NCBI GenBank assembly: GCA_004356105.1
Contig: SMYC01000026.1
Location: 11,020-75,019, forward strand
From: Acidobacteriota bacterium
Lineage (GTDB): Bacteria; Acidobacteriota; Vicinamibacteria; Marinacidobacterales; SMYC01
DNA: 64,000 nucleotides
Reading direction: 5' to 3'
Shown here: one piece after another, positions 2,046 through 64,000 of the stretch
Numbering within the stretch: position 1 is the stretch's first letter
How the letters are laid out: each line of letters begins with the position of its first letter
Position numbers and translations under genes: made by a program
Notes under the pieces: generated by a model
Told to the model about the DNA's origin: nothing
Databases searched by the model: none
Seen by the model: the letters and a program-made list of their open reading frames with translations, nothing else

Positions 2046-3443
2046 TCAGGCGCGTCTGCGAATACGTACCGCGCTCTCGAGCTGAAAGCTCGTCTGGGGC
2101 CTCATCGAAGAAAGCCAGTCGTGCAGGCGGTCGATGCCGTCGGTAACGCGGGAGCAATAGCGACGCAAGAACGCTTCGTCGAGCGCTGCTTCTTTCGGTA
2201 ACGCATCGGCGGCGCGCATGGCTTCCGCGCCATCGAAGTCCACATAGGCGAGCCGCAAGGTGAGCTCGTCCTTGCTACGACCGAACGCGGAGCCCGGCAC
2301 GGTGGCGACCCCCGTCTTGTCCAGCAGATGCGTGCAAAGCTCTTCGCTCGAGCTTACGCCGCTCTCCCTGAGCTCGTACTCGAAGGCGCCAAAATCGGGG
2401 AAGAGGTAGAAGCCGCCATCTGGAGTTCCGAGCCGCAAGCCCGCGTCACGGAGCTTGGCCGCGCAGTGCTGGCCGAGAGCGCTCAAGATGCGTCGCGACG
2501 TGCTCAAATAGGATTCGATCTCGGGCCCACCCACGAAAGCCTTGATGGCCGCGAATTGAATCGGAGCACTCGTCGCCGTGAAGGTCTCACTCGCGACCGC
2601 CGCCATGGCATCGAGAAGCCAATGGAGGTTGTCGGGGAAGGTAAACGTCCCGAGTCTCCACCCGCCCGCACCGCACCATTTGCTCAGCCCTGAGCTGATG
2701 ATCGTGCCCTCGGGGTAGTACTCCGCGATGGACGTATGTTTTCCGGCGTGGTGGAGCTCGCCGTAGATCTCGTCCGACAGCAGGACGACGCGATAGCGCC
2801 GGGCAACCTCGGCGAGCTGGCGTAGTTTGTCCTTGCCGTAAGAATATCCCGTCGGGTTGTGCGGGTAGTTGAGAATGACCAGTCGCGGGCGGTCCGGATC
2901 GTCCGCGCAGAGCTCCTCGAGCTCCGCGGGCATCAGGCCCCAATTGTTGTCGGCTTGGGTGCGAAGCCATCGGACTGGGCGCCCGATGATGTGAGCCTGT
3001 GGCTCGTAGGACACCCACGACGGCGTGGGAATACAGAGGTCCCCGTAATAGACGAGCTGAATCAGAAACATCAGCTCTTTGGAGCCGGGACCGACGAGTA
3101 CGTTGTCGCCCGTGCACTGAATGGAGTGCTTGCGCCCATGATATTGCGCCACCGCGTCGCGCAATTCGCGAAGCCCTTTGACCGGGAGGTAGTCCTTCTG
3201 GTGGGCGTTCTCCTTCAGCGCCTCGACGACGGAGCGCGGCACGGGGAACGGCGATTGCCCGAGGCCGAATTTGAAGATGTCACGGCCCTGTGCGATGAGC
3301 TCGGCGCTGAGCTCGTTGATGGCGAGGGTCGCGGACGGCGTGAGGCCGCGAACATTCAGGTTCAAGTTGACGGATGGGTAACTTGTTTTGCCTGGGTTGT
3401 TTGTCTCGGTCGTCATGGCTTGAGGCTCAGTGTTTGGGGACAC
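2046..3443 (-). CDS. PLP-dependent aminotransferase, class I/II
   Basis: 465 aa. It has the NYPHNPTG and SKWCGAGGWRLG blocks of fold-type I aminotransferases. A long antisense ORF overlaps and is ignored. Confidence 0.8.
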   Translation of the reverse strand: MSPNTEPQAMTTETNNPGKTSYPSVNLNLNVRGLTPSATLAINELSAELIAQGRDIFKFGLGQSPFPVPRSVVEALKENAHQKDYLPVKGLRELRDAVAQYHGRKHSIQCTGDNVLVGPGSKELMFLIQLVYYGDLCIPTPSWVSYEPQAHIIGRPVRWLRTQADNNWGLMPAELEELCADDPDRPRLVILNYPHNPTGYSYGKDKLRQLAEVARRYRVVLLSDEIYGELHHAGKHTSIAEYYPEGTIISSGLSKWCGAGGWRLGTFTFPDNLHWLLDAMAAVASETFTATSAPIQFAAIKAFVGGPEIESYLSTSRRILSALGQHCAAKLRDAGLRLGTPDGGFYLFPDFGAFEYELRESGVSSSEELCTHLLDKTGVATVPGSAFGRSKDELTLRLAYVDFDGAEAMRAADALPKEAALDEAFLRRYCSRVTDGIDRLHDWLSSMRPQTSFQLESAVRIRRRA

Positions 3444-9066: not shown

Positions 9067-10222
9067 GAACGCGCTTGCTCGCGTTCGTGCCGCTTCTGCT
9101 CGCGGGGTGCGGTGTGGGGTCGTCTACCGAGCCGGCGGATCCGGAGGGCATGCTTGGCCGCGCGTGCGCCTACCTCACGAGTCAGCAGGCGGAGGACGGC
9201 GGGTGGCACAGTCAGACCTACGGCCTGGCCCGATCGGGCCAAGCCTGGACTCCGTTCGTCCTGCACGCGCTCCTCGAAGCTTCCGAGAGCCATCCGTCGG
9301 TGCCTCGACCGGACGTCGGGCGCGCACTCGACTTCATTCGTCGACATATTAACGAGGAGGGGGTTCTCGGCCTGGCGGATCCCGACGTGCCTGAATACCC
9401 CAACTACGCGACGGCTTTCGCGCTTCGTTCTGTGGTTCGCGTCGGACGTGAAGAGGACCAACCGCTTGTCGAGCGGATGCGCAGCTTTCTGGCGGCGGAA
9501 CAGTTTCAGGCAGAAAACGGCTACGATGAGACGTCGCTGGCATATGGGAGTTGGGGATTCGGTGGCCCTCGCCCCGAGGGCTCGCCCGGCCACCTGGGTC
9601 TCTCCACACCCGGCACGTTCTCCAGGCGCTCCGGGAGGCGGGGCTTTCCGATCCCAACGTGTACGAACGGGCGCAGGCGTTCTTGCGGCTCGTCCAGCGA
9701 CACCCCGCCGATACGCGACCTCAACCTCCGGTCACCGAAGTCGCCAACGAGAACGTCCCGTACGATGGCGGGTTCTATTTCTCGCCCGTCGTTCTCGAGG
9801 CCAACAAGGGCGCGCTCGTCGAAAGCGAGGACGGCTCGTACTTCGAGAGTTACACCAGCGCTACTTGCGACGGTGTGCTCTCGCTCCTGGAAGCAGGGGT
9901 AGCGAAAGAAGACGAGCGCGTGCTCGCGGCGCGTGAGTGGCTTCAGAGCCATCCGCGTCTCGACTACCCTGAAGGGATCCCGGAAGATGACCCCGAGGCC
10001 TTCGGTGACGCGATCTTCTTCTATCACCTTGCCGCTCGCGCCGAGGTATACGAAGCGCTCGATTGGCCCGGAGACTGGCGCGACGCCATGTCCACGGAGC
10101 TTGCGCCTAGACAGCTCCTGGACGGGAGCTTCGTCAACACGCGAAACCACCTCATGAAGGAGGATGACCCGCTGTTGGCGACCGCACTTGCGGTCATCGC
10201 GCTGACCCGCGCCGCGAGGTGA
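9063..10222 (+). CDS. prenyltransferase/squalene-oxidase repeat lipoprotein (paralog of the upstream gene), with a frameshift near 9580
   Basis: ATGA start/stop overlap with the upstream gene. Lipobox LLLAGCGV. QW motifs QQAEDGGWHSQ and RQLLDGSFVNT. The reading frame changes between SWGFGGPRPEGSPGH and LHTRHVLQALREAGL. Confidence 0.6.
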
Positions 10223-12655: not shown

Positions 12656-14476
12656 CTATTCGTGCCTGAGAGCGAGCATCGGGTCGAGGCGCGTGGCGCG
12701 CCGGGCGGGCCAGTAGACGGCTCCGAGGGCGACCGTGGCGAGAACGATCGTCGCGAGAAGCAACGTCGTCGCATCGGTCGGCTCGACCCCGTAGAGCGAG
12801 CTCGCAAGAAAGCGGGTCAGCAGGACCGCGCCCACCAGCCCGCCGGCGAGTCCGAGCCAGACCTTCTTCATGGCTTGGCTGACGATGAGCGACACGACGT
12901 TCGCTCGCGAGGCGCCGAGCGCCATGCGAAGGCCCATCTCCCGCGATCGGAGACCCACCGCGAAGGCGATGACACCGTAGATCCCGATCGAGGCCAGTGC
13001 GAGGGCGGCGTCGGCGAACGCTCCCAGGATGATGAGGCTGAAGCGATTCGCTGCCATCGACCCCGCGACCTGGGCGTCGAGCGTGTCGACCGCGTGGATG
13101 GGAAGCTCCGCGTCGGCGAGCTTGAGCTCGTTGCGCACGCGCGGCAACAAAGCCAGCAGGGAATGCTGCGCCTGGCCGGTGCGCAGAATAAATGTTCTCC
13201 AGCTCATCCAGCGCCAAGTGCGTTGGAGCGAAGGCGCGTACATCGCACCTCGCGCCGGCTCGTCGAGCCCGTAATGTTTCGTATCGGCGGCGACGCCCAC
13301 GACTTCGTGCCACGGACCATCCTCTGCGAACGCAATACGCCGTCCCAGCGGATTCTCGTCCGACCAGATGCGCCGCGCCATGGTCTCGTTGATCACGAGA
13401 ACCGGCGTGGACTCCGCGCGGTCGCGCTCGTCGAACGCCCTTCCTTTCAGAAGCGCAATGCCTGTGGCGCGAAAGTAGTCCGGCGATATCGCGCGATAAG
13501 GCATGAGGGTGCGCTCACCTGGCGCGGGTGCGGCTCGTCCTTCGACGAGAAAGCTGCCTGTTGATTCGTTCGTGTTCAGCGGGAGGCTCGTTGTCGCCCC
13601 CACGGTTCGAACCCCGGGGATGGCGCCAAGCTTCTCTTCTAGCTCGCCGTAGAACTGCTCCTGCTGCTGGATGTCTGGGTATCGCGATGGTGGAAGGTAA
13701 AACGACACGGCGAGCGCACCCCTGGGATTGAACCCTGGGTCGACTTGGAGAAGACGCCAGAAACTGTTGAGCAAGAGCCCGGCTCCTGCGAGAAGAACGA
13801 GCGACAGTGCCACCTCGGCGATGACGAGACCACTCCGGACACGCTCTCATAGAACGTGAGGCTCATGCCCAAAGCTCCACCCACGAGCGCCAGGAGAGTG
13901 CTTTCGACGAGAAACTGCTTCAGAAGCTGGTGCCTTCCCGCGCCCATGGCGACCCGGATGGCGGTCTCCCGCTCCCGCGAGCTCGCGCGCGCGAGGAGAA
14001 GATTCGCGACGTTGACGTAGGCAATGAGAAGCACGAGGGCGACCGCACCGAGAAGCACCAGGAGGCGCGTTCGCTCTTGGCGTACGAGATCTTCGTGGAG
14101 TGAGACGACGTTGACACTCCACCCCGTCATCCATTCCGGATGGTCCTCACTCAGGCGCGCCGCGATCGTCGTCATGTCGGCGCGCGCCTCGTCGAGGCTC
14201 ACGCCCGGGCGCCGCCGGCCAACGACACGCAGCATGTGCGCCTTCCGGTTATGCCGGTCGTCGCTGTCGAAACGGCGGGGGAACCCACAGGTCGGCATCA
14301 GACATCACCAGCCGAGACGTGGGCGGAAGCACGCCTACGATCGTGACCGCATCCCCGTCGATGCGAATCGTGCGTCCGATGGCACCGGGGTCAGCGCCGA
14401 AACGGGACGTCCAGAGATCATGGCTCAAGACCGTAACGTAAGGCGCGCCCGTTTCGTGATCCGACTCCACGAACAA
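12656..14476 (-). pseudogene. ADOP/MacB-like ABC transporter permease (FtsX + MacB periplasmic domain), N-terminally truncated with at least two frameshifts
   Basis: Three overlapping ORFs (12656-13813, 13639-14298, 14249-14476) together give the MacB_PCD and both FtsX halves. The C-terminus is RLDPMLALRHE. The first TM/N-terminus is absent. Confidence 0.6.
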
Positions 14477-14585: not shown

Positions 14586-14918
14586 TTAGGCTCCGATAAT
14601 CTCATTGAGCCCCTCTACAACGTGAGCCAGTTCCTCGGGACTCGCTCGGGCAATTCGCCTGCCGACTCTTTCGAGCGCCAACGTCCGTATTTGACTGATC
14701 TTTATCCACGACTTCTTCGGGAGACCCTTGGCGTCACACTTCAGAGTGAGCGGGAAATGCGCGCGCTGAGGTACGCTCGTCAGGGCGACGGCAATGATGG
14801 TCCCTGATCGCTCGTTGAACACATCTTGACTAAGAACAAGAATCGGGCGACTGCCGGCTTGCTCTCGTCCCCGGGTTGGGTTTAGGTCCGCCCAACGAAT
14901 GTCGCCCCTTAATATTCG
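14586..14918 (-). CDS. MazF/PemK-family type II toxin (mRNA interferase)
   Basis: RGDIRWADLNPTRGREQAGSRPILVLSQDVFNERSGTIIAVALTS is the PemK/MazF core. The likely start is the internal Met MARILRG. Confidence 0.7.
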   Translation of the reverse strand, partial: RILRGDIRWADLNPTRGREQAGSRPILVLSQDVFNERSGTIIAVALTSVPQRAHFPLTLKCDAKGLPKKSWIKISQIRTLALERVGRRIARASPEELAHVVEGLNEIIGA

Positions 14919-15151
14919 GGCCATTCCGCCGAATCCGCTGACACGCCTTCTTCCGCGAGGCCCTTTTCGAAATCCCGATCGAGCTTGGCGCACTCTCGTG
15001 CTAGACGACTTCGCTCCAGGCGTTCAAGCTTTTCGAAGACAGCCTCTTCGATCGCCTGGCTGCGATTGGGGTAGAATTCTTCCGCAACGAGCCTGTCCAA
15101 ACGTTCGAGCGTCGCTACATCCAAAGAAATCGCGATTTTCGCTCGAGGCAT
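14909..15151 (-). CDS. RHH/CopG-type antitoxin partner of the MazF-like toxin
   Basis: 80 aa. The N-terminal MPRAKIAISLDVATLERLD is a ribbon-helix-helix motif. It overlaps the toxin start by a few nt. Confidence 0.6.
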   Translation of the reverse strand: MPRAKIAISLDVATLERLDRLVAEEFYPNRSQAIEEAVFEKLERLERSRLARECAKLDRDFEKGLAEEGVSADSAEWPEY

Positions 15152-15379: not shown

Positions 15380-15793
15380 TTAGTTCGACGGACCGCCTTC
15401 GAGCTCGGCGGACCAGTTTTCCACGACGACGAGCACAGCTTCCTCAGCCGCGGCAATCATCACGAGACGGTCCCCATCGGGATGGACGTCGTAGGGTGGC
15501 GCGTCAAAAGTGCCGCTAACCGACGACAAGAACACGTCCGCTTCTTCAGCAGTAAAACGCGGCTCAGGCTTGTCCGCTTGGAACACTGACCCGGTGGTCA
15601 CGGGAACTCGCATCAACCGGTTCTCCTCCACGTAGAACAGCGCCGCTTCGTCTTCTTCGATGGAGTGGATCGTCGCAATATTGGGATGATTCAACTTCGC
15701 GGCCGCCTCGGCTTCCGTTCGAAAGCGGCGCAGGCGCTCGGGATCGTGGCGCAGATCCTCGGGCAGGAACTTGATCGCTACCTCGCGCTTCAT
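15380..15793 (-). pseudogene. internally deleted Ser/Thr kinase-PD40 propeller gene remnant
   Basis: Kinase subdomains II-IV ([10 protein letters not shown]...[11 protein letters not shown]) are joined directly to the last propeller blade and the family C-terminus ([12 protein letters not shown]...[11 protein letters not shown]). Confidence 0.55.
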
Positions 15794-37884: not shown

Positions 37885-39126
37885 ATGAGCAAGCGATACG
37901 TCACTATCGATCCTCCGAAAAACGCTCCCGCCGGCCACCCGGTCAAAGCGTGGGTCCGCGGCGTGCCCTTGGATCCCAAAGCGAAGGACCAACTCCTGCG
38001 AACGTCGCAGCTTCCGTTCATCCACCGCTGGGTAGCGGCGATGCCTGACGTGCACTGGGGGCTGGGCGCAACGATCGGAAGCGTCATCCCGACGAAAAAG
38101 GCCATCATCCCCGCGGCCGTGGGTGTTGATATCGGCTGCGGCATGGCCGCCATGCACACGAGCCTCACGGCCTCCGACTTGCCGGATAATCTTGCGCCGC
38201 TCCGCAGCGCGATCGAAAAAGCCGTCCCGCATGGCCGCTCGCATCGCGGTGGCCGTGGCGACCGCGGTGCGTTCGGCAACGTTCCTAAGCGAAACGTCAA
38301 AGCATGGGAAGGTCTGCGAGAAGGCTACGCGCGCATCGTCGCAAAGTATCCGAAGCTCGACCGCAACAACCCGCCAGCGAGCCAGCTCGGCACGCTGGGC
38401 TCGGGAAACCACTTTATCGAGATCTGCTTGGATGAAGAAGAAGACGTTTGGTTCATGCTGCATTCGGGATCCCGCGGTGTCGGAAACCGAACGGGCATGC
38501 ACTTCATTCAGCTTGCACAAAAGGACATGGGGCGTCATCTGCAGAAGCTTCCCGACAAAGACCTCGCTTATTTCGAGGAGGGGAGCGAGCATTTCGACGA
38601 CTACTGGTTCGCGGTGGACTGGGCGCAGCGTTACGCCGCGACCAATCGAGATCTCATGATGGCGGCGGTAACCGAAGCGGTGCGCGACACGAAGCTCGTG
38701 CCGGCTTTCCGTGCGAAAGAGCAAGTCGTGAACTGCCATCACAACTACGTGGCGCGCGAGCGTCACTACGGGGACGATGTCCTGGTGACGCGCAAGGGCG
38801 CGGTCCGAGCCGGGCTCGGCGATCTCGGGATTATTCCTGGCAGCATGGGCGCGCGCTCTTTTATCGTTCGCGGCAAGGGAAACCCCGAGAGCTTCGAGTC
38901 GTGCAGCCACGGCGCCGGCCGCGTCATGTCGCGAACCGCGGCCAAGAAGACGTTCACGCTCGACGATCACGCCAAAGCAACCCAGGGCGTCGAGTGCCGC
39001 AAGGACGCGGGCGTCATCGACGAGACGCCGGCGGCGTACAAGGACATTGACGCGGTGATGGAAGCGCAGAGCGATCTCGTCGAGATCGTCCACCGCCTGA
39101 AGCAGATCGTTTGCGTGAAGGGTTGA
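37885..39126 (+). CDS. rtcB: RNA-splicing ligase RtcB
   Basis: 413 aa. GSGNHFIE and the His/Cys metal ligands are present. AAGGAGA RBS. Confidence 0.92.
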   Translation: MSKRYVTIDPPKNAPAGHPVKAWVRGVPLDPKAKDQLLRTSQLPFIHRWVAAMPDVHWGLGATIGSVIPTKKAIIPAAVGVDIGCGMAAMHTSLTASDLPDNLAPLRSAIEKAVPHGRSHRGGRGDRGAFGNVPKRNVKAWEGLREGYARIVAKYPKLDRNNPPASQLGTLGSGNHFIEICLDEEEDVWFMLHSGSRGVGNRTGMHFIQLAQKDMGRHLQKLPDKDLAYFEEGSEHFDDYWFAVDWAQRYAATNRDLMMAAVTEAVRDTKLVPAFRAKEQVVNCHHNYVARERHYGDDVLVTRKGAVRAGLGDLGIIPGSMGARSFIVRGKGNPESFESCSHGAGRVMSRTAAKKTFTLDDHAKATQGVECRKDAGVIDETPAAYKDIDAVMEAQSDLVEIVHRLKQIVCVKG

Positions 39127-39131
39127 GTACG

Positions 39132-40154
39132 ATGGTACGCCCCATCATGATTGATGGTTCCCAGGGAGAGGGCGGAGGACAGATTCTCCGCTCTTCCTTG
39201 GCGCTTTCGATTGTGACGGGAGAGCCGCTCACGATCGAGAACATCCGGGCGGGTCGCAAGAAGCCCGGGCTTCTCCGCCAGCACCTCACGGCCGTGAAGG
39301 CGGCCGCTCGTATCTCGAACGCGCATGTAGAAGGCGACGCGATCTCTAGCATGGAGCTTTCATTCCACCCGCAAGCTGTGCAGTCGGGTACCTATCACTT
39401 TGCCGTCGGCACCGCGGGCAGCGCGATCCTCGTTCTCCAAACGATTTTGCCAGCCTTGATGTTGGCGGACGGTCCTTCTGAGTTGACGCTCGAAGGCGGC
39501 ACGCACAATCCCTGGGCTCCGCCCTTCGAGTTTCTCACGCGAGCCTTCGCACCCACGATCGAGCGCATGGGGCCGCGACTGCATCTCGAGCTCGTGAAGC
39601 CCGGCTTCTATCCCGCAGGGGGCGGCCGGTTCACCGTGCGCATCGAGCCCGTGGCCGAGCTCAAAGGGCTCACGCTCCTTACGCGCGGCCAGGAAACGCG
39701 CCGTTCCGCGGAAGCGTTACTCGCGCACCTACCCGAGAAGATTGGCGAGCGCGAGCTCGACGTCTTGAAGCGCCGCCTCTCACTTCCCGCCGACGCGGCA
39801 ACCTGCCGCGTCTTGTCCAACTCGGTGGGACCCGGCAACGCGCTCGTACTCACGCTCGAGTTCGAGCGCGCGGTCGAAGTGGTCTCGACGATTGGGCGCA
39901 AAGGCGTGAGTGCGGAGAAGGTCGCCAGTGAAACGGCCGATGTCGCCGAGGCGTTCCTAGCTTCAGAAGCCCCGGTTGGTGTGCATCTCGCGGATCAGTT
40001 ACTGCTCCCGATGGCGATCGCGGGCGGCGGGGCGTTTCGTACCTTGGCGTTGAGCGAGCACGCGCGCACGAATATCGATGTCATCAAGCGCTTTCTCGAC
40101 CGTCCCATCCGTGTACAAGAAGAAGGCGCAACGGTCGTCCTGCGCTTCGATTAG
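39132..40154 (+). CDS. rtcA: RNA 3'-terminal phosphate cyclase RtcA
   Basis: IMIDGSQGEGGGQILRSSLALS N-terminal motif. Immediately downstream of rtcB. Confidence 0.9.
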   Translation: MVRPIMIDGSQGEGGGQILRSSLALSIVTGEPLTIENIRAGRKKPGLLRQHLTAVKAAARISNAHVEGDAISSMELSFHPQAVQSGTYHFAVGTAGSAILVLQTILPALMLADGPSELTLEGGTHNPWAPPFEFLTRAFAPTIERMGPRLHLELVKPGFYPAGGGRFTVRIEPVAELKGLTLLTRGQETRRSAEALLAHLPEKIGERELDVLKRRLSLPADAATCRVLSNSVGPGNALVLTLEFERAVEVVSTIGRKGVSAEKVASETADVAEAFLASEAPVGVHLADQLLLPMAIAGGGAFRTLALSEHARTNIDVIKRFLDRPIRVQEEGATVVLRFD

Positions 40155-47402: not shown

Positions 47403-47670
47403 CGCCACGGCGGGCCGACGCCGGAGCTCAATACTCGTAATCAAGCGTCGCGGCTGTTCGATTCCGTATGGCTAGCATGCCGCCCAGGCGGATAGGACCG
47501 CTATATCTCTCATGATTTCATATGCTTGAGGAGACCCGCCAACGGCGAACGAGGCTGCGTAATTTTCAAGGATGAGGCCTCATGCCGCCGATTATCTTGC
47601 CGATTGTAGCTTCAGGAGCCGTGTACGAGCTCGCGGTCCCGGGACCGGTTTGAAGAAAACAAGCAAGAGC

Positions 47671-52168
<4,498 letters not shown>

Positions 52169-61772: not shown

Positions 61773-62210
61773 ATGGGACAAAAGGAGCGCTTTCTAGCCG
61801 GAGAGCTGGCCGCTCGAGTAGGGGTCAACCGCGAGACGCTGCGCTATTACGAGCGCCGCGGGCTTTTGAAACCGGCACGCCGCACCGCGGCCGGCTATCG
61901 AATCTACGATGAGGAATCGGCGGCTCGGCTGCTCTTTATCAAACGAGCGCAAGGGTTCGGGTTCTCGCTGGAGGAAATCCGCGGCCTACTCAGGATGAAA
62001 CCTGCGAGTCCTCGGAGCTGCACACGGGTCATGAAGATGCTCGACAGCAAGCTCGAAGAGCTCGCCGCGAAGATGCAGGAAATGGCGCACTTCCACCGGC
62101 AACTTACGGGATATCGGAAACAGTGCGACGAGGCTTTGGCTGAAGGTGAGTGCTGTCCGGTCATCGTTTCGGTCGGCCGCTCCAGCGAATCGGAGCCTGA
62201 TAAAAACTGA
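61773..62210 (+). CDS. merR: MerR-family metal-responsive regulator, Hg(II)-type
   Basis: N-terminal HTH (LAGELAARVGVNRETLRYYERRGLL). Cys at positions 83, 118 and 127/128 reproduce the Cys82/Cys117/Cys126 spacing of Tn501 MerR. Confidence 0.75.
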   Translation: MGQKERFLAGELAARVGVNRETLRYYERRGLLKPARRTAAGYRIYDEESAARLLFIKRAQGFGFSLEEIRGLLRMKPASPRSCTRVMKMLDSKLEELAAKMQEMAHFHRQLTGYRKQCDEALAEGECCPVIVSVGRSSESEPDKN

Positions 62211-62274: not shown

Positions 62275-62937
62275 ATGAGCTCAGAAGAAATCAGCAAAGC
62301 ATCCCCAGGAGGCGACGCCAGTTGTTGCGAGGTCGGCGCCGAACCGAAATCGCGCGCGGGCACCCTGGGGGCGGTTTCCGCGGCGTTCGCGTCCGTATGC
62401 TGTGGCCTTCCCCTTTTGTTGATTGCCTTCGGGCTGGGCGGGCTGGGTTTCGGAAGTGTCCTCGGGAAGTATCACTGGTATTTCACCGGCGTGGGCATCG
62501 TGCTTCTCACCGCCGCGTGGTTCGTTTTCTTGAGAGAGCAGTCCCGGCTGCGAGCCGCGGGTTCCGAGATACGAAACGCGCGCCTCACACCGGTCCTTCT
62601 CGGTATCGCGACGGTTGCGGTTCTCGGATTCGGTGCGCTCAACGTTTCGAGCGCTCTTGGGCTCGGGTCGAAAGCCCGAGAGGTTGCCCAGGCCGCGTCG
62701 AGCTCATCCGGCGAGATGGCGCAAGTCGTCCTGTCCGTTGAGGGCATGACTTGCGTCACGTGCGAGTGGGGTATCGAGAAAGCCCTCGGGAAGCTCAACG
62801 GCGTGATCGAAGCGAAAGCGAGCTCCTCGGAACATAAGGTTCTCGTGCGCTATGAGCCGGGGGAAGTGACCTTCGAACAAATGATTGAAGCGGTGGACTC
62901 CACAGGATACAAGGCCTCGATGCCGAACCCGTCGTAG
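62275..62937 (+). CDS. merT: MerT-like membrane transporter fused to a C-terminal MerP-like HMA domain
   Basis: TM1 carries the vicinal Cys pair (ASVCCGLPLLLIAFG) like MerT ACCLGPLVL. The C-terminus is VLSVEGMTCVTCEWGIEKALGKLNGV (HMA, GMTCxxC). Confidence 0.65.
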   Translation: MSSEEISKASPGGDASCCEVGAEPKSRAGTLGAVSAAFASVCCGLPLLLIAFGLGGLGFGSVLGKYHWYFTGVGIVLLTAAWFVFLREQSRLRAAGSEIRNARLTPVLLGIATVAVLGFGALNVSSALGLGSKAREVAQAASSSSGEMAQVVLSVEGMTCVTCEWGIEKALGKLNGVIEAKASSSEHKVLVRYEPGEVTFEQMIEAVDSTGYKASMPNPS

Positions 62938-62951
62938 AACCGTAGACAACG

Positions 62952-63464
62952 ATGAGCGATTGCTGCAGGACAGCCGAACCTTCGGCCGCCGCGAACGACC
63001 GATGCCAGCGCTGCGGTGAGAAAGGACGCAGGGTACTCCGCGAGACCATGGAGAGTCTGTTGAAGCCGGAAGCTCTCGAGCGTTTCGCGGACGAGCCCTA
63101 TTTTTTTGACCGCACCCCCTCATGCGACGTCGTCTACTTCTCCAATGAAGCCCAGTCCTATTTCGACAAGGACGAGCTTTCCGTGCGCGTAGGCTTGAAA
63201 GAGACAGAGTCTCCCATCGCGCTGTGCTACTGTTTTGGCCATACTGCGGAGTCTGTCCGCGAGGAAATCGTGGCCAAAGGTCGCTCGACCACTGCCGAGA
63301 GGATCACGGCAGAGGTCCAGGCGGGGAACTGTTCCTGCGAGACGAAAAATCCGTCGGGCAAGTGCTGCCTCGGCGAAGTGTATGGGGCGGTCCAACGGAT
63401 CCAGAAAGAGCTATCGCCGGAAGAGCTGCAGGAAGAGCCCGTGACTCTAATGGAGAGAGGATAA
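62952..63464 (+). CDS. Cys-rich putative metal/FeS-binding protein
   Basis: MSDCCRTA...CQRCGEKG at the N-terminus. ALCYCFGHTAESVREEI...AGNCSCETKNPSGKCCLGEV resembles a BFD-like [2Fe-2S] CxC...CxxC arrangement. Family unknown. Confidence 0.45.
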   Translation: MSDCCRTAEPSAAANDRCQRCGEKGRRVLRETMESLLKPEALERFADEPYFFDRTPSCDVVYFSNEAQSYFDKDELSVRVGLKETESPIALCYCFGHTAESVREEIVAKGRSTTAERITAEVQAGNCSCETKNPSGKCCLGEVYGAVQRIQKELSPEELQEEPVTLMERG

Positions 63465-63470
63465 GAATTA

Positions 63471-63767
63471 ATGATAAAAAAGAGCGTTCTCTTGTTCTTG
63501 GTAACGCTTGTAGCGTTCTCCATGAGTCTCGCGTTCGGGGCCGAGGGGCCCAAGGAGGTCGAGCTCGAAATCAGCGGCATGACGTGAACCGGCTGCGCCG
63601 CGGCGGTCAAAGCCGCGCTCGAGAAAGTAGAAGGCTGCGAAGAAGCGAAGGCTGATTGGGAAAAGGGCTTAGCCTGGGCGAAGTACGATCCCGACAAGAC
63701 CAACCCGGAAGAGCTCGTCAAAGCCGTAAACGAGAACACCGCGTTCGAAGCCAAGCTCCCCTAGCTG
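63471..63767 (+). CDS. merP: periplasmic MerP-like HMA protein with in-frame TGA at the first Cys of the metal-binding motif (candidate selenoprotein or pseudogene)
   Basis: Signal peptide MIKKSVLLFLVTLVAFSMSLAFGA. EVELEISGMT-[TGA]-TGCAAAVKAALEKVEGC continues in frame for 60 more codons to a TAG. The TGA at 63585-63587 replaces the first Cys of GMTCxxC. Confidence 0.5.
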
Positions 63768-63803
63768 GGTAGGTTCGTCGAAGAAGAGCCACAGGCCACA
63801 GGA

Positions 63804-64000
63804 ATGACACGTCTCTCTCTGCTCGTCACCATCGCCATCGCGGTCGCGTTCGGAAGCTCGCCGCTCGAAGCCCATCCGGGCCACAAACATCTCGTGGCCG
63901 CTTCAGCCGTTGCTGCGTCCGGCGCTCGGTCCGCAGTTCCCGGCGGGATAAGCGGCCAGGGGGCCATGCGCTTCCGGGTTCTCTACACGAGCGAGCGACT
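63804..64000 (+). CDS. secreted His-rich protein, 5' partial (continues beyond window)
   Basis: MTRLSLLVTIAIAVAFGSSPLEAHPGHKHL... is a signal peptide. The ORF is open to the window end. Confidence 0.3.
   Translation, partial: MTRLSLLVTIAIAVAFGSSPLEAHPGHKHLVAASAVAASGARSAVPGGISGQGAMRFRVLYTSER

What the first reader, a model, noticed from the sequence alone, without database searches (positions are those of the whole stretch)
63471..63767. In-frame UGA exactly at the metal-binding Cys of a MerP-like protein, followed by a hairpin: candidate selenocysteine recoding
The small periplasmic HMA protein reads ...EISGMT-TGA-TGCAAAVKAAL.... The stop codon sits where every HMA protein has the first Cys of GMTCxxC, and the frame stays open for 60 more codons to a normal TAG. 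A GC-rich hairpin (stem GCGCCGCGGC / GCCGCGCTCG, core six G-C/C-G base pairs, loop GGUCAAA) lies at 63595-63621, 8-34 nt after the UGA. That is the position bacterial SECIS elements occupy, and its apical loop has a G-U. A UxxC metal site would be a Sec-for-Cys swap of the kind reported in HMA/thiol-disulfide selenoproteins. A plain nonsense mutation or a base-call error is an equally possible explanation, given the frameshifts elsewhere in the contig.
Basis: partly seen in the sequence, partly recalled or inferred. Interest (0 to 1): 0.8.

Follow-up and report, generated by a model that had tools for sequence, protein, structure and literature searches.

The report
Selenocysteine-containing periplasmic MerP-like metal-binding protein
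The in-frame UGA is almost certainly a real selenocysteine codon in a small exported heavy-metal-binding protein of a mercury-type operon; this kind of selenoprotein is already known, but public gene calls for this clade are all cut in two.

Summary
An ORF runs from ATG 63471 through TGA 63585-87 to TAG 63762-64. It encodes a signal peptide plus an HMA domain reading GMT-U-TG-C.

The TGA is neither an error nor a nonsense mutation:
- All 54 related loci carry TGA at this codon. They come from many metagenomes and from Vicinamibacteria MAGs, and share 67-80% nucleotide identity with the window.
- The two residues between Sec and Cys vary among loci.
- The 57 codons after the UGA are under purifying selection (dN/dS 0.03-0.23).
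- Cys-form homologues align Cys to the UGA. One of them sits in the same operon position.

The hairpin CGCGGC-GGUCAAA-GCCGCG (63599-63617) meets every constraint of the published bacterial SECIS model. Its synonymous sites are frozen: entropy 0.10 against 0.96 elsewhere in the gene (p = 3e-4). Covariation is almost absent, and the fold energy alone is unremarkable.

No sel genes or tRNA-Sec lie in the 64 kb window, so the Sec machinery of this organism is untested.

HMA-domain selenoproteins are already known (UxxC in P-type ATPases, UxxU NF041115, MerT/CopZ fusions). This protein falls below all their cut-offs, so I class it as a new member of a known kind. Every database gene call found for the clade is truncated.

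The parts
63471..63764 (+). Gene for a 97-residue precursor of a MerP-like HMA selenoprotein: MIKK...EISGMT-U-TGCAAAV...EAKLP, including the TAG stop.
   Evidence: HMA, 1.4e-12; best NCBIfam match is NF041115, 64.7 bits against a cut-off of 95. PDB HMA domains, including MerP 1AFI at 9e-8; dN/dS of 0.03-0.23 downstream of the UGA.
63452..63461 (+). Shine-Dalgarno-like GGAGAGAGGA, 10-19 nt upstream of the ATG. It overlaps the end of the preceding gene, whose TAA is at 63462-64, which suggests translational coupling within an operon.
   Evidence: Read directly. The role is inferred.
63471..63539 (+). Predicted Sec-type signal peptide (MIKKSVLLFLVTLVAFSMSLAFG | AEGP), which implies a periplasmic mature protein of 74 residues.
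   Evidence: By inspection: a KK n-region, a hydrophobic core and an A-F-G cleavage motif. No signal-peptide predictor was available. Orthologues all have equivalent N-termini, and one distant member has a twin-arginine motif.
63585..63587 (+). In-frame UGA, interpreted as the selenocysteine codon (residue 39; first ligand of the U-x-x-C metal site).
   Evidence: TGA is present at the homologous codon in 54 of 54 related loci. It aligns to Cys in Cys-form homologues.
63594..63596 (+). TGC, the second metal ligand (Cys42) of the UxxC motif.
   Evidence: Invariant Cys in all 35 distinct sequences (codon +3).
63599..63617 (+). Candidate bacterial SECIS core: a 6-bp G-C stem (63599-63604 with 63612-63617) and a 7-nt apical loop GGUCAAA (63605-63611). 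It lies 11 nt after the UGA.
   Evidence: RNAalifold recovers this stem in 26 sequences. The hairpin energy is -11.2 to -12.0 kcal/mol. It meets the four constraints of the model quoted. Four-fold sites of codons +4 to +11 have entropy 0.10 against 0.96 elsewhere, p = 3e-4. 96% of cells are paired, with one compensatory C-G to A-U change.
63636..63638 (+). TGC for Cys56 in the 'VEGC' motif. This extra Cys is characteristic of the mer-operon Sec clade; Cys-form homologues have Val here.
   Evidence: 35 of 35 distinct Sec-clade sequences have TGC (codon +17). Cys-form homologues read EGV or DGV. Its role is unknown.
61773..62210 (+). MerR-family regulator and first gene of the operon. It has Cys83, Cys118 and Cys127, the same spacing as the Hg(II)-binding Cys82/117/126 of Tn501 MerR (own knowledge).
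   Evidence: TIGR02051 MerR, 113.6 bits, below the 150.85 cut-off. One search gives the Cys positions.
62275..62937 (+). MerT-like membrane protein fused to a C-terminal HMA domain with an ordinary GMTCVTC site. It is the likely acceptor of the metal from the periplasmic selenoprotein.
   Evidence: MerTP_fusion, 84.2 bits, below the 180 cut-off; HMA 1.4e-13. Its HMA domain is 33% identical to the Sec protein, with Cys aligned to U.
62952..63464 (+). zf_CopZ / BFD-like putative Fe-S metallochaperone with an N-terminal Cys-Cys. It belongs to the Cys-Cys sister family of a known Cys-Sec selenoprotein family.
   Evidence: zf_CopZ, 1.6e-17. (NF047645 CopZ_Nterm_CC, 131.3 bits, above the 100 cut-off).

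Best explanation
The gene at 63471-63764 encodes a genuine selenoprotein: a small exported HMA-fold metal-binding protein of the MerP type. In it, the first cysteine of the GMTCxxC metal site is selenocysteine, encoded by UGA 63585-87.

Proposed mechanism, in order:
1. During translation, the hairpin 11 nt downstream (stem 63599-604 with 63612-617, loop GGUCAAA) acts as the bacterial SECIS.
2. SelB-GTP carrying Sec-tRNA(Sec) binds the G-G-U of the apical loop and delivers Sec to the UGA in the ribosomal A site. Translation therefore continues for 58 more codons.
3. The precursor is exported through its N-terminal signal peptide.
4. The mature 74-residue protein binds a soft metal ion, most likely Hg(II), between the selenolate of U39 and the thiolate of C42. 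It passes the metal to the MerT-HMA fusion protein encoded two genes upstream, under control of a three-cysteine MerR regulator.

Shown here by computation:
- a conserved UGA;
- purifying selection downstream of it;
- HMA homology;
- Sec/Cys pairing with homologues;
- a SECIS-model-compliant hairpin with frozen synonymous sites;
- the operon context.

Inferred:
- SelB-dependent insertion;
- export to the periplasm;
- the identity of the metal;
- the hand-off partner.
For: (1) TGA is conserved.
- All 50 loci of the mer-operon clade (35 distinct sequences) have TGA at this codon. They come from more than 20 metagenome assemblies plus MAGs of Vicinamibacteria and Ca. Marinacidobacterales, and share 67-80% nt identity with the window over the operon. 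The codon is never TAA, TAG or a Cys codon.
- The two intervening residues vary: TG, TS, AS, SS, VS, PG, AG, GG.
- Four more distant lineages, about 50-59% identical, also have TGA there.

(2) dN/dS of the 57 codons after the UGA is 0.03-0.23 against 13 orthologues. That stretch is therefore translated in this frame.

(3) In two protein searches, every close relative (74% identity or more) was a short C-terminal fragment, with no full-length call. This is the classic signature of an unrecognised Sec codon.

(4) A Sec/Cys pair exists.
- Full-length homologues have GM[TDH]CGGC at the site.
- One of them (L053) occupies the same position in a MerR-MerB-MerT-zfCopZ-HMA operon.
- The in-operon paralogue aligns Cys to U.

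(5) The hairpin meets all four constraints of the published bSECIS model quoted:
- loop of 3-9 nt: here 7;
- stem of 4-16 bp: here 6;
- G in the first two loop positions followed by G or U: here GGU;
- 16-37 nt between UGA and loop: here 17;
- MFE at or below -7.5 kcal/mol: here -11.2 to -12.0.

(6) The third positions of the Ala, Val and Leu codons that form the hairpin are invariant or nearly so. Mean entropy is 0.10, against 0.96 at other four-fold sites of the same gene (Mann-Whitney p = 3e-4).
- In L002 and L003 the peptide changed (VKAA to VRRA), yet the same 3' arm GCCGCG is kept in a shifted register.
- L057 shows a compensatory C-G to A-U change in the closing pair.
- The Cys-form L053 encodes the same CAAAV peptide with different codons and has no hairpin.

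(7) The Sec-decoding trait is documented in Acidobacteria (PMC1794560).

(8) Sec-for-Cys swaps in HMA and mercury-handling proteins are an established class.
Against: - No selA, selB, selD or tRNA-Sec gene, and no second selenoprotein gene, lies in the 64 kb window or in the fetched flanks. The organism's Sec machinery is therefore unverified.
- The stem is almost invariant, so covariation support is minimal: one pair, with 50 of 500 shuffles reaching the same count.
- The 61-nt region does not fold better than shuffled sequence.
- An Ala-rich, GC-rich peptide can give a hairpin by accident. One Cys-form homologue (L052) has one, although its loop lacks the required G.
- No Rfam family matches.
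- The metal is inferred. The MerR, MerT-fusion and MerP models all score below their curated cut-offs. The flavoprotein next to the gene in orthologous loci scores below the MerA cut-off and lacks the C-terminal Cys pair of MerA.
Confidence: 0.9

Rival explanations
1. The UGA is decoded, but not as selenocysteine. It could be read as Cys by a tRNA(Sec)-like tRNA(Cys) of the SelC* type, or by an acidobacterial allo-tRNA or near-cognate suppressor. That would give a CxxC protein or some other variant.
For: PMC5389517 reports tRNA(Sec)-like opal suppressors that insert Cys in Deltaproteobacteria. It also reports unusual allo-tRNAs in Acidobacteria that may act as nonsense or missense suppressors. 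Sec machinery was not demonstrated for this organism.
Against: - SelC* genes were not reported from Acidobacteria in that paper.
- A plain Cys codon would achieve the same product at no cost. Yet none of 54 loci has one, while more distant homologues do.
- The conserved SelB-type hairpin with a GGU loop at the canonical distance is what Sec insertion requires.
- Ser or Ala at a metal-ligand position would destroy the site.
Confidence: 0.05
2. The gene is a pseudogene inactivated by a nonsense mutation, or the TGA is a sequencing or assembly error (TGC or TGT misread).
For: The contig does contain broken genes. A MacB/FtsX-type permease is split over three frames at 12656-14476, and a kinase fragment lies at 15380-15793.
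Against: - Those defects are frameshifts, not substitutions.
- The same TGA is present in an independent assembly and in 54 of 54 related loci from unrelated samples.
- There is strong purifying selection downstream.
- Independent identical nonsense mutations or identical errors in dozens of lineages are not credible.
Confidence: 0.01
3. Translation really stops at the UGA. The locus then yields a 38-residue exported peptide and, separately, a C-terminal 58-residue fragment, as current gene calls imply.
For: Gene callers annotate exactly this split in every database entry.
Against: - There is no conserved start codon or ribosome-binding site after the UGA. The next codon is ACC, ACG, GCG, TCC, GTG, CCT, GGC and others, and the called starts differ between loci.
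- The split would cut the HMA fold inside its metal-binding loop and leave the second half without a signal peptide.
- The reading frame is strictly kept across the stop in all loci.
Confidence: 0.02

Closest known systems
NF041115 'UxxU_metal_bind' metal-binding (seleno)protein, listed in reviews as 'putative mercuric reductase' / metal-binding protein with UxxU
   Same: It is a stand-alone HMA-fold protein whose metal-site cysteines are replaced by selenocysteine. It is the best-scoring NCBIfam model for this protein (6.3e-18) and is listed as a prokaryotic selenoprotein family.
   Different: The score of 64.7 bits is below the curated cut-off of 95. Only the first ligand here is Sec (UxxC, not UxxU). 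This protein carries a signal peptide and sits in a MerR / MerT-HMA / zf_CopZ operon of Vicinamibacteria.
Sec-containing HMA domain of the E1-E2 cation-transporting P-type ATPase (UxxC; e.g. ABB15669.1)
   Same: The table lists the same UxxC motif for this family. From my own knowledge, not checked here, the Sec sits in the ATPase's N-terminal metal-binding HMA domain.
   Different: There the domain is the cytoplasmic N-terminal module of a large ATPase. Here it is a free, exported 74-residue protein.
MerP of Tn501/Tn21 mer operons (TIGR02052; PDB 1AFI, 1OSD)
   Same: It is a small periplasmic HMA protein with a signal peptide and a GMTCxxC-type site, encoded in an operon with merR and merT. 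PDB MerP matches at E = 9e-8 and TIGR02052 at 2.3e-13.
   Different: The score of 50.4 bits is below the 92.55 cut-off. The first ligand is Sec. There is an extra clade-specific Cys (VEGC), and in many orthologues a C-terminal Cys-Cys tail. The gene order differs, with a zf_CopZ gene between merT and merP.
NF045683 MerT/CopZ fusion-like heavy metal transport selenoprotein, and MerT-family selenoproteins (CU / CxxU)
   Same: These are selenoproteins of mercury-type transport systems, showing that Sec is used elsewhere in Hg trafficking.
   Different: This protein has no MerT membrane domain and scores 37.9 bits against a cut-off of 375. In this operon the MerT-HMA fusion is the all-Cys protein, and the separate periplasmic partner carries the Sec.
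E. coli fdhF-type bacterial SECIS and the bSECISearch consensus model
   Same: The hairpin lies immediately downstream of the UGA inside the ORF, has a small apical loop beginning G-G-U, and lies 17 nt from the UGA (model as quoted). The 11-nt spacer equals the spacing I recall for the minimal fdhF element; this is my own knowledge and was not verified here.
   Different: The stem is a short, all-G-C 6-bp helix. No bulged U and no extended lower helix could be established. SelB binding has not been tested.

Membership tests
Bacterial selenoprotein gene (Sec-UGA plus SECIS) | In-frame UGA that aligns with Cys in homologues (Sec/Cys pair) | tested here: met
   Pfam and PDB alignments put the UGA on the first Cys of GMTCxxC. 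Cys-form homologues P0046, P0051, P0068 and P0076 have Cys there. The in-operon paralogue aligns Cys to U.
Bacterial selenoprotein gene (Sec-UGA plus SECIS) | UGA conserved among orthologues, with the downstream frame maintained under purifying selection | tested here: met
   54 of 54 loci have TGA. dN/dS is 0.03-0.23.
Bacterial selenoprotein gene (Sec-UGA plus SECIS) | Downstream stem-loop satisfying the bSECIS model (loop 3-9 nt, stem 4-16 bp, G in the first two loop positions, 16-37 nt from the UGA, MFE at or below -7.5) | tested here: met
   The loop is 7 nt (GGUCAAA), the stem is 6 bp, the distance is 17 nt, and the energy is -11.2 to -12.0 kcal/mol. The model is as quoted. Synonymous sites are frozen. 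My own script was used, not bSECISearch itself.
Bacterial selenoprotein gene (Sec-UGA plus SECIS) | Structure supported by compensatory base changes | tested here: inconclusive
   The stem is nearly invariant. There is one compensatory pair (C-G to A-U in L057) and 96% of cells are paired, but 50 of 500 shuffles reach the same pair count.
Bacterial selenoprotein gene (Sec-UGA plus SECIS) | Host genome encodes selA, selB, selC (tRNA-Sec) and selD | not testable with these tools
   None lies in the 64 kb window or in the fetched flanks. The trait is known in the phylum.
Bacterial selenoprotein gene (Sec-UGA plus SECIS) | Selenium demonstrated in the protein | not testable with these tools
   This needs an experiment (75Se labelling or mass spectrometry).
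HMA domain (Pfam PF00403) | Score above the gathering threshold, with the metal-binding motif at the beta1-alpha1 loop | tested here: met
   48.3 bits against 24.8, residues 32-88. The motif is GMT[U]TGC.
MerP (TIGR02052) | Score above the curated cut-off of 92.55 bits | tested here: not met
   50.4 bits. The protein is MerP-like in architecture (signal peptide plus HMA, mer-type operon), but it is not a member by the curated model.
NF041115 UxxU metal-binding (seleno)protein | Score above the cut-off of 95 bits, and a UxxU (or CxxC) site with both ligands exchangeable for Sec | tested here: not met
   64.7 bits. The second ligand is TGC (Cys) in all 35 distinct sequences.
NF045683 MerT/CopZ fusion-like selenoprotein | MerT membrane domain fused to HMA; score above 375 bits | tested here: not met
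   37.9 bits, with a match to the HMA part only. The protein has no membrane domain.
Canonical mer (mercury resistance) operon | merR with three Hg-binding Cys, merT, merP and merA (with a C-terminal Cys pair) | tested here: inconclusive
   - A MerR-like regulator has Cys83, Cys118 and Cys127.
- A MerT-like CC motif is fused to an HMA domain.
- MerB is adjacent in L002, L003 and L053.
- All of these models score below their cut-offs.
- No merA lies in the window, which ends 236 nt after the gene.
- The adjacent flavoprotein in orthologues lacks the C-terminal Cys pair.

The most novel reading that the evidence does not exclude
This may be an obligately selenium-dependent clade of exported mercury or soft-metal receptors. 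No Cys-form member was found among 54 loci. On this reading, the selenolate in the periplasm, together with a clade-specific extra Cys (VEGC) and, in many members, a flexible C-terminal Cys-Cys tail, forms a multi-station relay. The relay would capture Hg(II), or perhaps organomercurials given the MerB neighbours, with far higher affinity or faster ligand exchange than thiol-only MerP. That would tie selenium availability directly to mercury handling in sediment and soil Vicinamibacteria.
Probability: 0.2. Interest if true: 0.6.

Novelty: new member of a known kind. Interest (0 to 1): 0.4.

Why it matters
1. It is a clean, well-supported case of a selenoprotein gene that the gene calls miss. 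Every close relative found in the protein collections searched is split or truncated, including entries from NCBI-hosted MAGs. No curated NCBIfam model reaches its cut-off. A dedicated model would correct the annotation in Vicinamibacteria and related metagenomes.

2. It adds a free, exported MerP-type protein to the known set of Sec-containing mercury and heavy-metal proteins: MerT, HMA-ATPase, UxxU proteins, HgcA/B and the SAO system. This strengthens the emerging link between selenium and mercury biochemistry.

3. Hg-Se bonds are much stronger than Hg-S bonds. A Sec-MerP therefore raises a testable question: how is the metal released to the membrane transporter?

It does not change the known principles of Sec recoding.

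Tried and rejected
- Folding energy: the 61 nt after the UGA fold no better than shuffles (z = +0.96). Thermodynamic stability was dropped as evidence.
- Rfam: no meaningful match in 63300-64000.
- Covariation: RNAalifold found none in 26 sequences. Adding distant members gave one compensatory pair, which is not significant.
- A lower helix that includes the UGA (UGA pairing with UCG of CUCGAG) appears in some MFE folds. It is not consistently supported and partly competes with the upper stem, so I do not claim it.
- Sec machinery:
  - No tRNA is present in the window or in 18 loci.
  - Pfam scans of 30 large ORFs found no SelA, SelB or SelD.
  - A scan for other TGA-split coding ORFs returned only this gene. 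The other candidates were adjacent genes or non-coding shadows, and the one at 14101 is the antisense strand of a broken permease.
- The exact hairpin motif occurs nowhere else in the window.
The exact-sequence look-up rejects 'U'.
- The 'MerP' selenoprotein listed in the GOS study turned out to be two short reads (…AGTUCQSGV…) with no recognisable GMTUxxC motif. It is not a precedent for this protein.
- L012 and L051 from the collection scans are unrelated false positives.
- A literature check of the 11-nt spacing rule found no usable source. That point rests on my own knowledge.
Full report
**1. What is in the sequence**

On the + strand an ORF starts at ATG 63471, 6 nt after the TAA of the preceding gene and behind a GGAGAGAGGA Shine-Dalgarno-like stretch. 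It reads MIKKSVLLFLVTLVAFSMSLAFGAEGPKEVELEISGMT, then TGA at 63585-87. It continues in frame with TGCAAAVKAALEKVEGCEEAKADWEKGLAWAKYDPDKTNPEELVKAVNENTAFEAKLP, ending at TAG 63762-64.

With the stop replaced by Cys, the product is a clear HMA domain: Pfam PF00403, E = 1.4e-12, 48.3 bits against a cut-off of 24.8, residues 32-88. Solved HMA domains, including NmerA and MerP, align their GMTCxxC motif onto GMT-[UGA]-TG-C.

The N-terminus looks like a Sec-type signal peptide with an A-F-G|A cleavage site. I judged this by inspection, because no predictor was available.

- There are 58 sense codons after the UGA, not 60, and the end coordinate is 3 nt too far.
- Only the inner six pairs of the proposed 10-nt stem arms are true pairs (63599-604 with 63612-617, loop GGUCAAA 63605-611).

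**2. Context**

The gene is the fourth in a co-directional cluster:
- A MerR-family regulator (61773-62210). Its Cys83, Cys118 and Cys127 have the same spacing as the Hg(II) ligands of Tn501 MerR. That comparison is my own knowledge.
- A MerT-like membrane protein fused to an ordinary GMTCVTC HMA domain (62275-62937).
- A zf_CopZ/BFD-type putative Fe-S metallochaperone with an N-terminal Cys-Cys (62952-63464). It matches NF047645 above its cut-off. Its sister family NF045877 is a Cys-Sec selenoprotein family.
- The UGA-containing gene itself.

The window ends 236 nt later.

**3. Is the UGA real and conserved?**

An independent Logan assembly of run SRR6057749 is 99.92% identical over 3,880 nt and has the same TGA.

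A word-indexed protein search with the read-through product returned 32 clusters. Every one is a C-terminal fragment that begins just after the UGA position or a few codons later. An exhaustive HMMER search of 1.84 billion representatives gave the same picture: all hits of 74% identity or more are fragments of 52-74 residues.

I then fetched DNA for these hits and ran pattern scans of genome and metagenome collections. This gave 50 loci of the clade, comprising 35 distinct 210-nt sequences. They come from many unrelated assemblies and are only 67-80% identical to the window across the operon.
- All 50 have TGA at the homologous codon. None has TAA, TAG, TGC or TGT.
- The two residues between Sec and Cys vary: TG, TS, AS, SS, VS, PG, AG, GG.
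- The frame is always preserved.

Two of the loci come from MAGs named Ca. Marinacidobacterales and Vicinamibacteria. Both belong to Acidobacteriota, class Vicinamibacteria.

Four further, much more divergent lineages were found by following truncated hits of 50-59% identity. They also carry TGA in G-M-[TL]-U-x-x-C.

dN/dS of the 57 codons downstream of the UGA, measured between the window and 13 orthologues, is 0.03-0.23. The stretch after the 'stop' is therefore translated and under selection. These results exclude a base-call error or a nonsense pseudogene.

**4. Sec/Cys pair**

The nearest full-length homologues are signal-peptide-bearing HMA proteins of 44-66% identity with GM[TDH]CGGC at the site. 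One of them (P0076, locus L053) lies in the same synteny: MerR, MerB, MerT, zf_CopZ, HMA. The HMA domain of the upstream MerT fusion aligns its Cys to the UGA at 33% identity.

**5. The hairpin**

*Taken alone it is unimpressive.* The 61-nt stretch folds no better than shuffles (z = +0.96). In this 62% G+C window, 8.3% of TGA triplets are followed by some hairpin that fits the consensus model. 1.9% have one as stable, and 0.4% also have a G[G/U] loop start.

*It fits the published bacterial SECIS model on every count.* The model is quoted in PMC13188914. The fit is:
- apical loop of 3-9 nt: here 7;
- upper stem of 4-16 bp: here 6;
- G in the first two loop positions followed by G or U: here GGU;
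- 16-37 nt from the UGA to the loop: here 17;
- MFE at or below -7.5 kcal/mol: here -11.2 to -12.0.

The 11-nt spacer equals the spacing I recall for the minimal E. coli fdhF element. I could not verify that here.

*The strongest argument is evolutionary.* Among 35 distinct sequences, the third positions of the Ala-Ala-Ala-Val-x-Ala-Ala-Leu codons that build the hairpin are invariant or nearly so. Their mean entropy is 0.10 bit. Four-fold sites elsewhere in the same gene, including five other Ala codons, average 0.96 bit (Mann-Whitney p = 3e-4).

Further observations point the same way:
- RNAalifold recovers exactly this stem.
- In L002 and L003 the peptide changed from VKAA to VRRA, yet the 3' arm GCCGCG is retained in a register shifted by 2 nt, giving the loop GGUCC.
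- The distant L056 keeps the identical hairpin. L057 replaces the closing C-G pair with A-U on both sides.
- The formal pair count gives 96% of cells paired but only that one compensatory pair. This is not significant, so the support comes from frozen synonymous sites rather than from covariation.

*Two Cys-form controls*:
- L053 encodes CAAAV with different codons (TGT GCG GCG GCC GTG) and has no hairpin.
- L052 does form a hairpin from its Ala codons, but with loop AUCAC, which fails the G rule.

So GC-rich Ala runs can make hairpins by accident. The frozen, model-compliant version, however, is specific to the UGA forms. With only two controls this is indicative rather than conclusive.

**6. 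What could not be shown**

The window contains no tRNA. Thirty large ORFs showed no SelA, SelB or SelD domains. No other gene looks TGA-interrupted. The flanks of related loci contain no tRNA-Sec.

With 64 kb of a genome that may be about 10 Mb, this absence is uninformative. The Sec-decoding trait is known in Acidobacteria (PMC1794560).

Acidobacteria also carry unusual allo-tRNAs that might suppress stops, and tRNA(Sec)-like tRNA(Cys) species exist in other phyla (PMC5389517). I therefore keep 'UGA decoded as something other than Sec' as a minor rival.

**7. Function**

By homology and context, the mature protein is a periplasmic soft-metal chaperone of the MerP type, with a selenolate-thiolate (U39/C42) site. 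Hg(II) is the most likely ligand for three reasons:
- the MerR regulator has the three-Cys signature;
- the partner is MerT-like;
- MerB lies next to the operon in L002, L003 and L053.

This assignment is not secure. All mer-specific models score below their cut-offs. The flavoprotein that follows the gene in most orthologous loci scores equally well as glutathione reductase, and it lacks the C-terminal Cys pair that MerA has. Cu(I), Ag(I) or Cd(II) cannot be excluded.

**8. Comparison with what is known**

Selenoproteins with Sec in HMA or mercury-handling proteins are catalogued. Examples are:
- UxxC in an E1-E2 cation ATPase;
- the UxxU stand-alone protein family (NF041115);
- MerT-family and MerT/CopZ-fusion selenoproteins (NF045683);
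- the SAO system and HgcA/B.

This protein scores best against NF041115, but below its cut-off (64.7 bits against 95), and it has UxxC rather than UxxU. It also falls below the cut-offs of MerP (50.4 against 92.55) and NF045683 (37.9 against 375).

The 'MerP' entry in the GOS selenoproteome table is based on two short reads without a recognisable HMA motif.

I therefore classify the gene as a new member of a known kind. It is a well-supported but unsurprising selenoprotein. Its practical value is mainly in correcting annotation, and it is a natural test case for Se-Hg chemistry in metal trafficking.

**9. Verdict**

- Confidence that this is a genuine Sec codon is about 0.9.
- Confidence in the mercury-chaperone role is about 0.6.
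- Interest is 0.4.

Noticed in passing
window 12656-14476 (- strand): A MacB/FtsX-type (ADOP-like) permease gene is broken into at least three overlapping ORFs in different frames: 14249-14476 (MacB_PCD), 13639-14298 (FtsX) and 12656-13813 (MacB_PCD + FtsX). This means frameshifts, from either a pseudogene or indel errors.
   Followed up: partly
window 14586-15151 (- strand): A type II toxin-antitoxin pair: a PemK/MazF-like toxin (14586-14993; 6.3e-27) overlapping an RHH/CopG antitoxin (14909-15151). Next to it lies a truncated protein-kinase fragment (15380-15793).
   Followed up: partly
window 63636-63638, and the same codon in L001-L050: The mer-operon Sec clade has a conserved extra Cys in 'VEGC' (35 of 35 distinct DNA sequences). 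Cys-form homologues and the more distant Sec lineages have Val at this position (EGV or DGV). One truncated database entry of the clade (P0029) also has Val. In the HMA fold this position should be far from the metal site, so its role is unexplained.
   Followed up: partly
L002 ~10190-10207; L003, L019, L020, L024, L042 and others (C-termini of orthologues): Many orthologues extend beyond '...EAKLP' with a Lys/Glu/Asp-rich linker that ends in ...FRIDPxPCC-COOH, a C-terminal vicinal Cys pair. This resembles Cys-Cys-COOH proteins and, from my own knowledge, the MerA tail. The window's protein and its closest relatives (L010, L013, L014) lack the extension.
   Followed up: no
L002 10210-11559; L004 10375-11724 (immediately downstream of the Sec gene in orthologous loci): A 449-residue pyridine-nucleotide disulfide oxidoreductase has a CAVRGC active site. 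It scores about equally against the MerA and glutathione-reductase models, below both cut-offs. It ends ...DISYMV without the C-terminal Cys pair of MerA, so it may not be a canonical mercuric reductase.
   Followed up: partly
L056 ~2850-3165: A distant Sec-HMA homologue with the identical hairpin carries a twin-arginine-type signal (MNRRNFLWTLAG...). It lies outside any mer-like operon, next to a Ser/Thr kinase-PD40/Tricorn protein. The Sec-HMA design is therefore used beyond the mer context.
   Followed up: no
L054 529-606: The most divergent Sec-HMA member (GGMT-U-VGC-EAPV...) lacks the GCGGCGGUC hairpin. Its only candidate stem-loop (GGGCU-GUGA-GGCCC) lies just 7 nt after the UGA, outside the 16-37 nt range of the consensus model. 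This may be a different SECIS arrangement.
   Followed up: no
window 47572-51846 (+): A 1,424-residue hybrid histidine kinase with five tandem CHASE3 domains, followed by HAMP, HisKA, HATPase and receiver domains.
   Followed up: no
window 37885-40154 (+): An adjacent RtcB RNA ligase and RtcA RNA 3'-phosphate cyclase gene pair, an RNA-repair operon.
   Followed up: no
window 63804-64000 (+): The gene after the selenoprotein gene starts MTRLSLLVTIAIAVAFGSSPLEAHPGHKH..., a signal peptide followed by a His-rich start. It has no family match and is cut by the window end. It replaces the flavoprotein gene found at this position in most orthologous loci.
   Followed up: no
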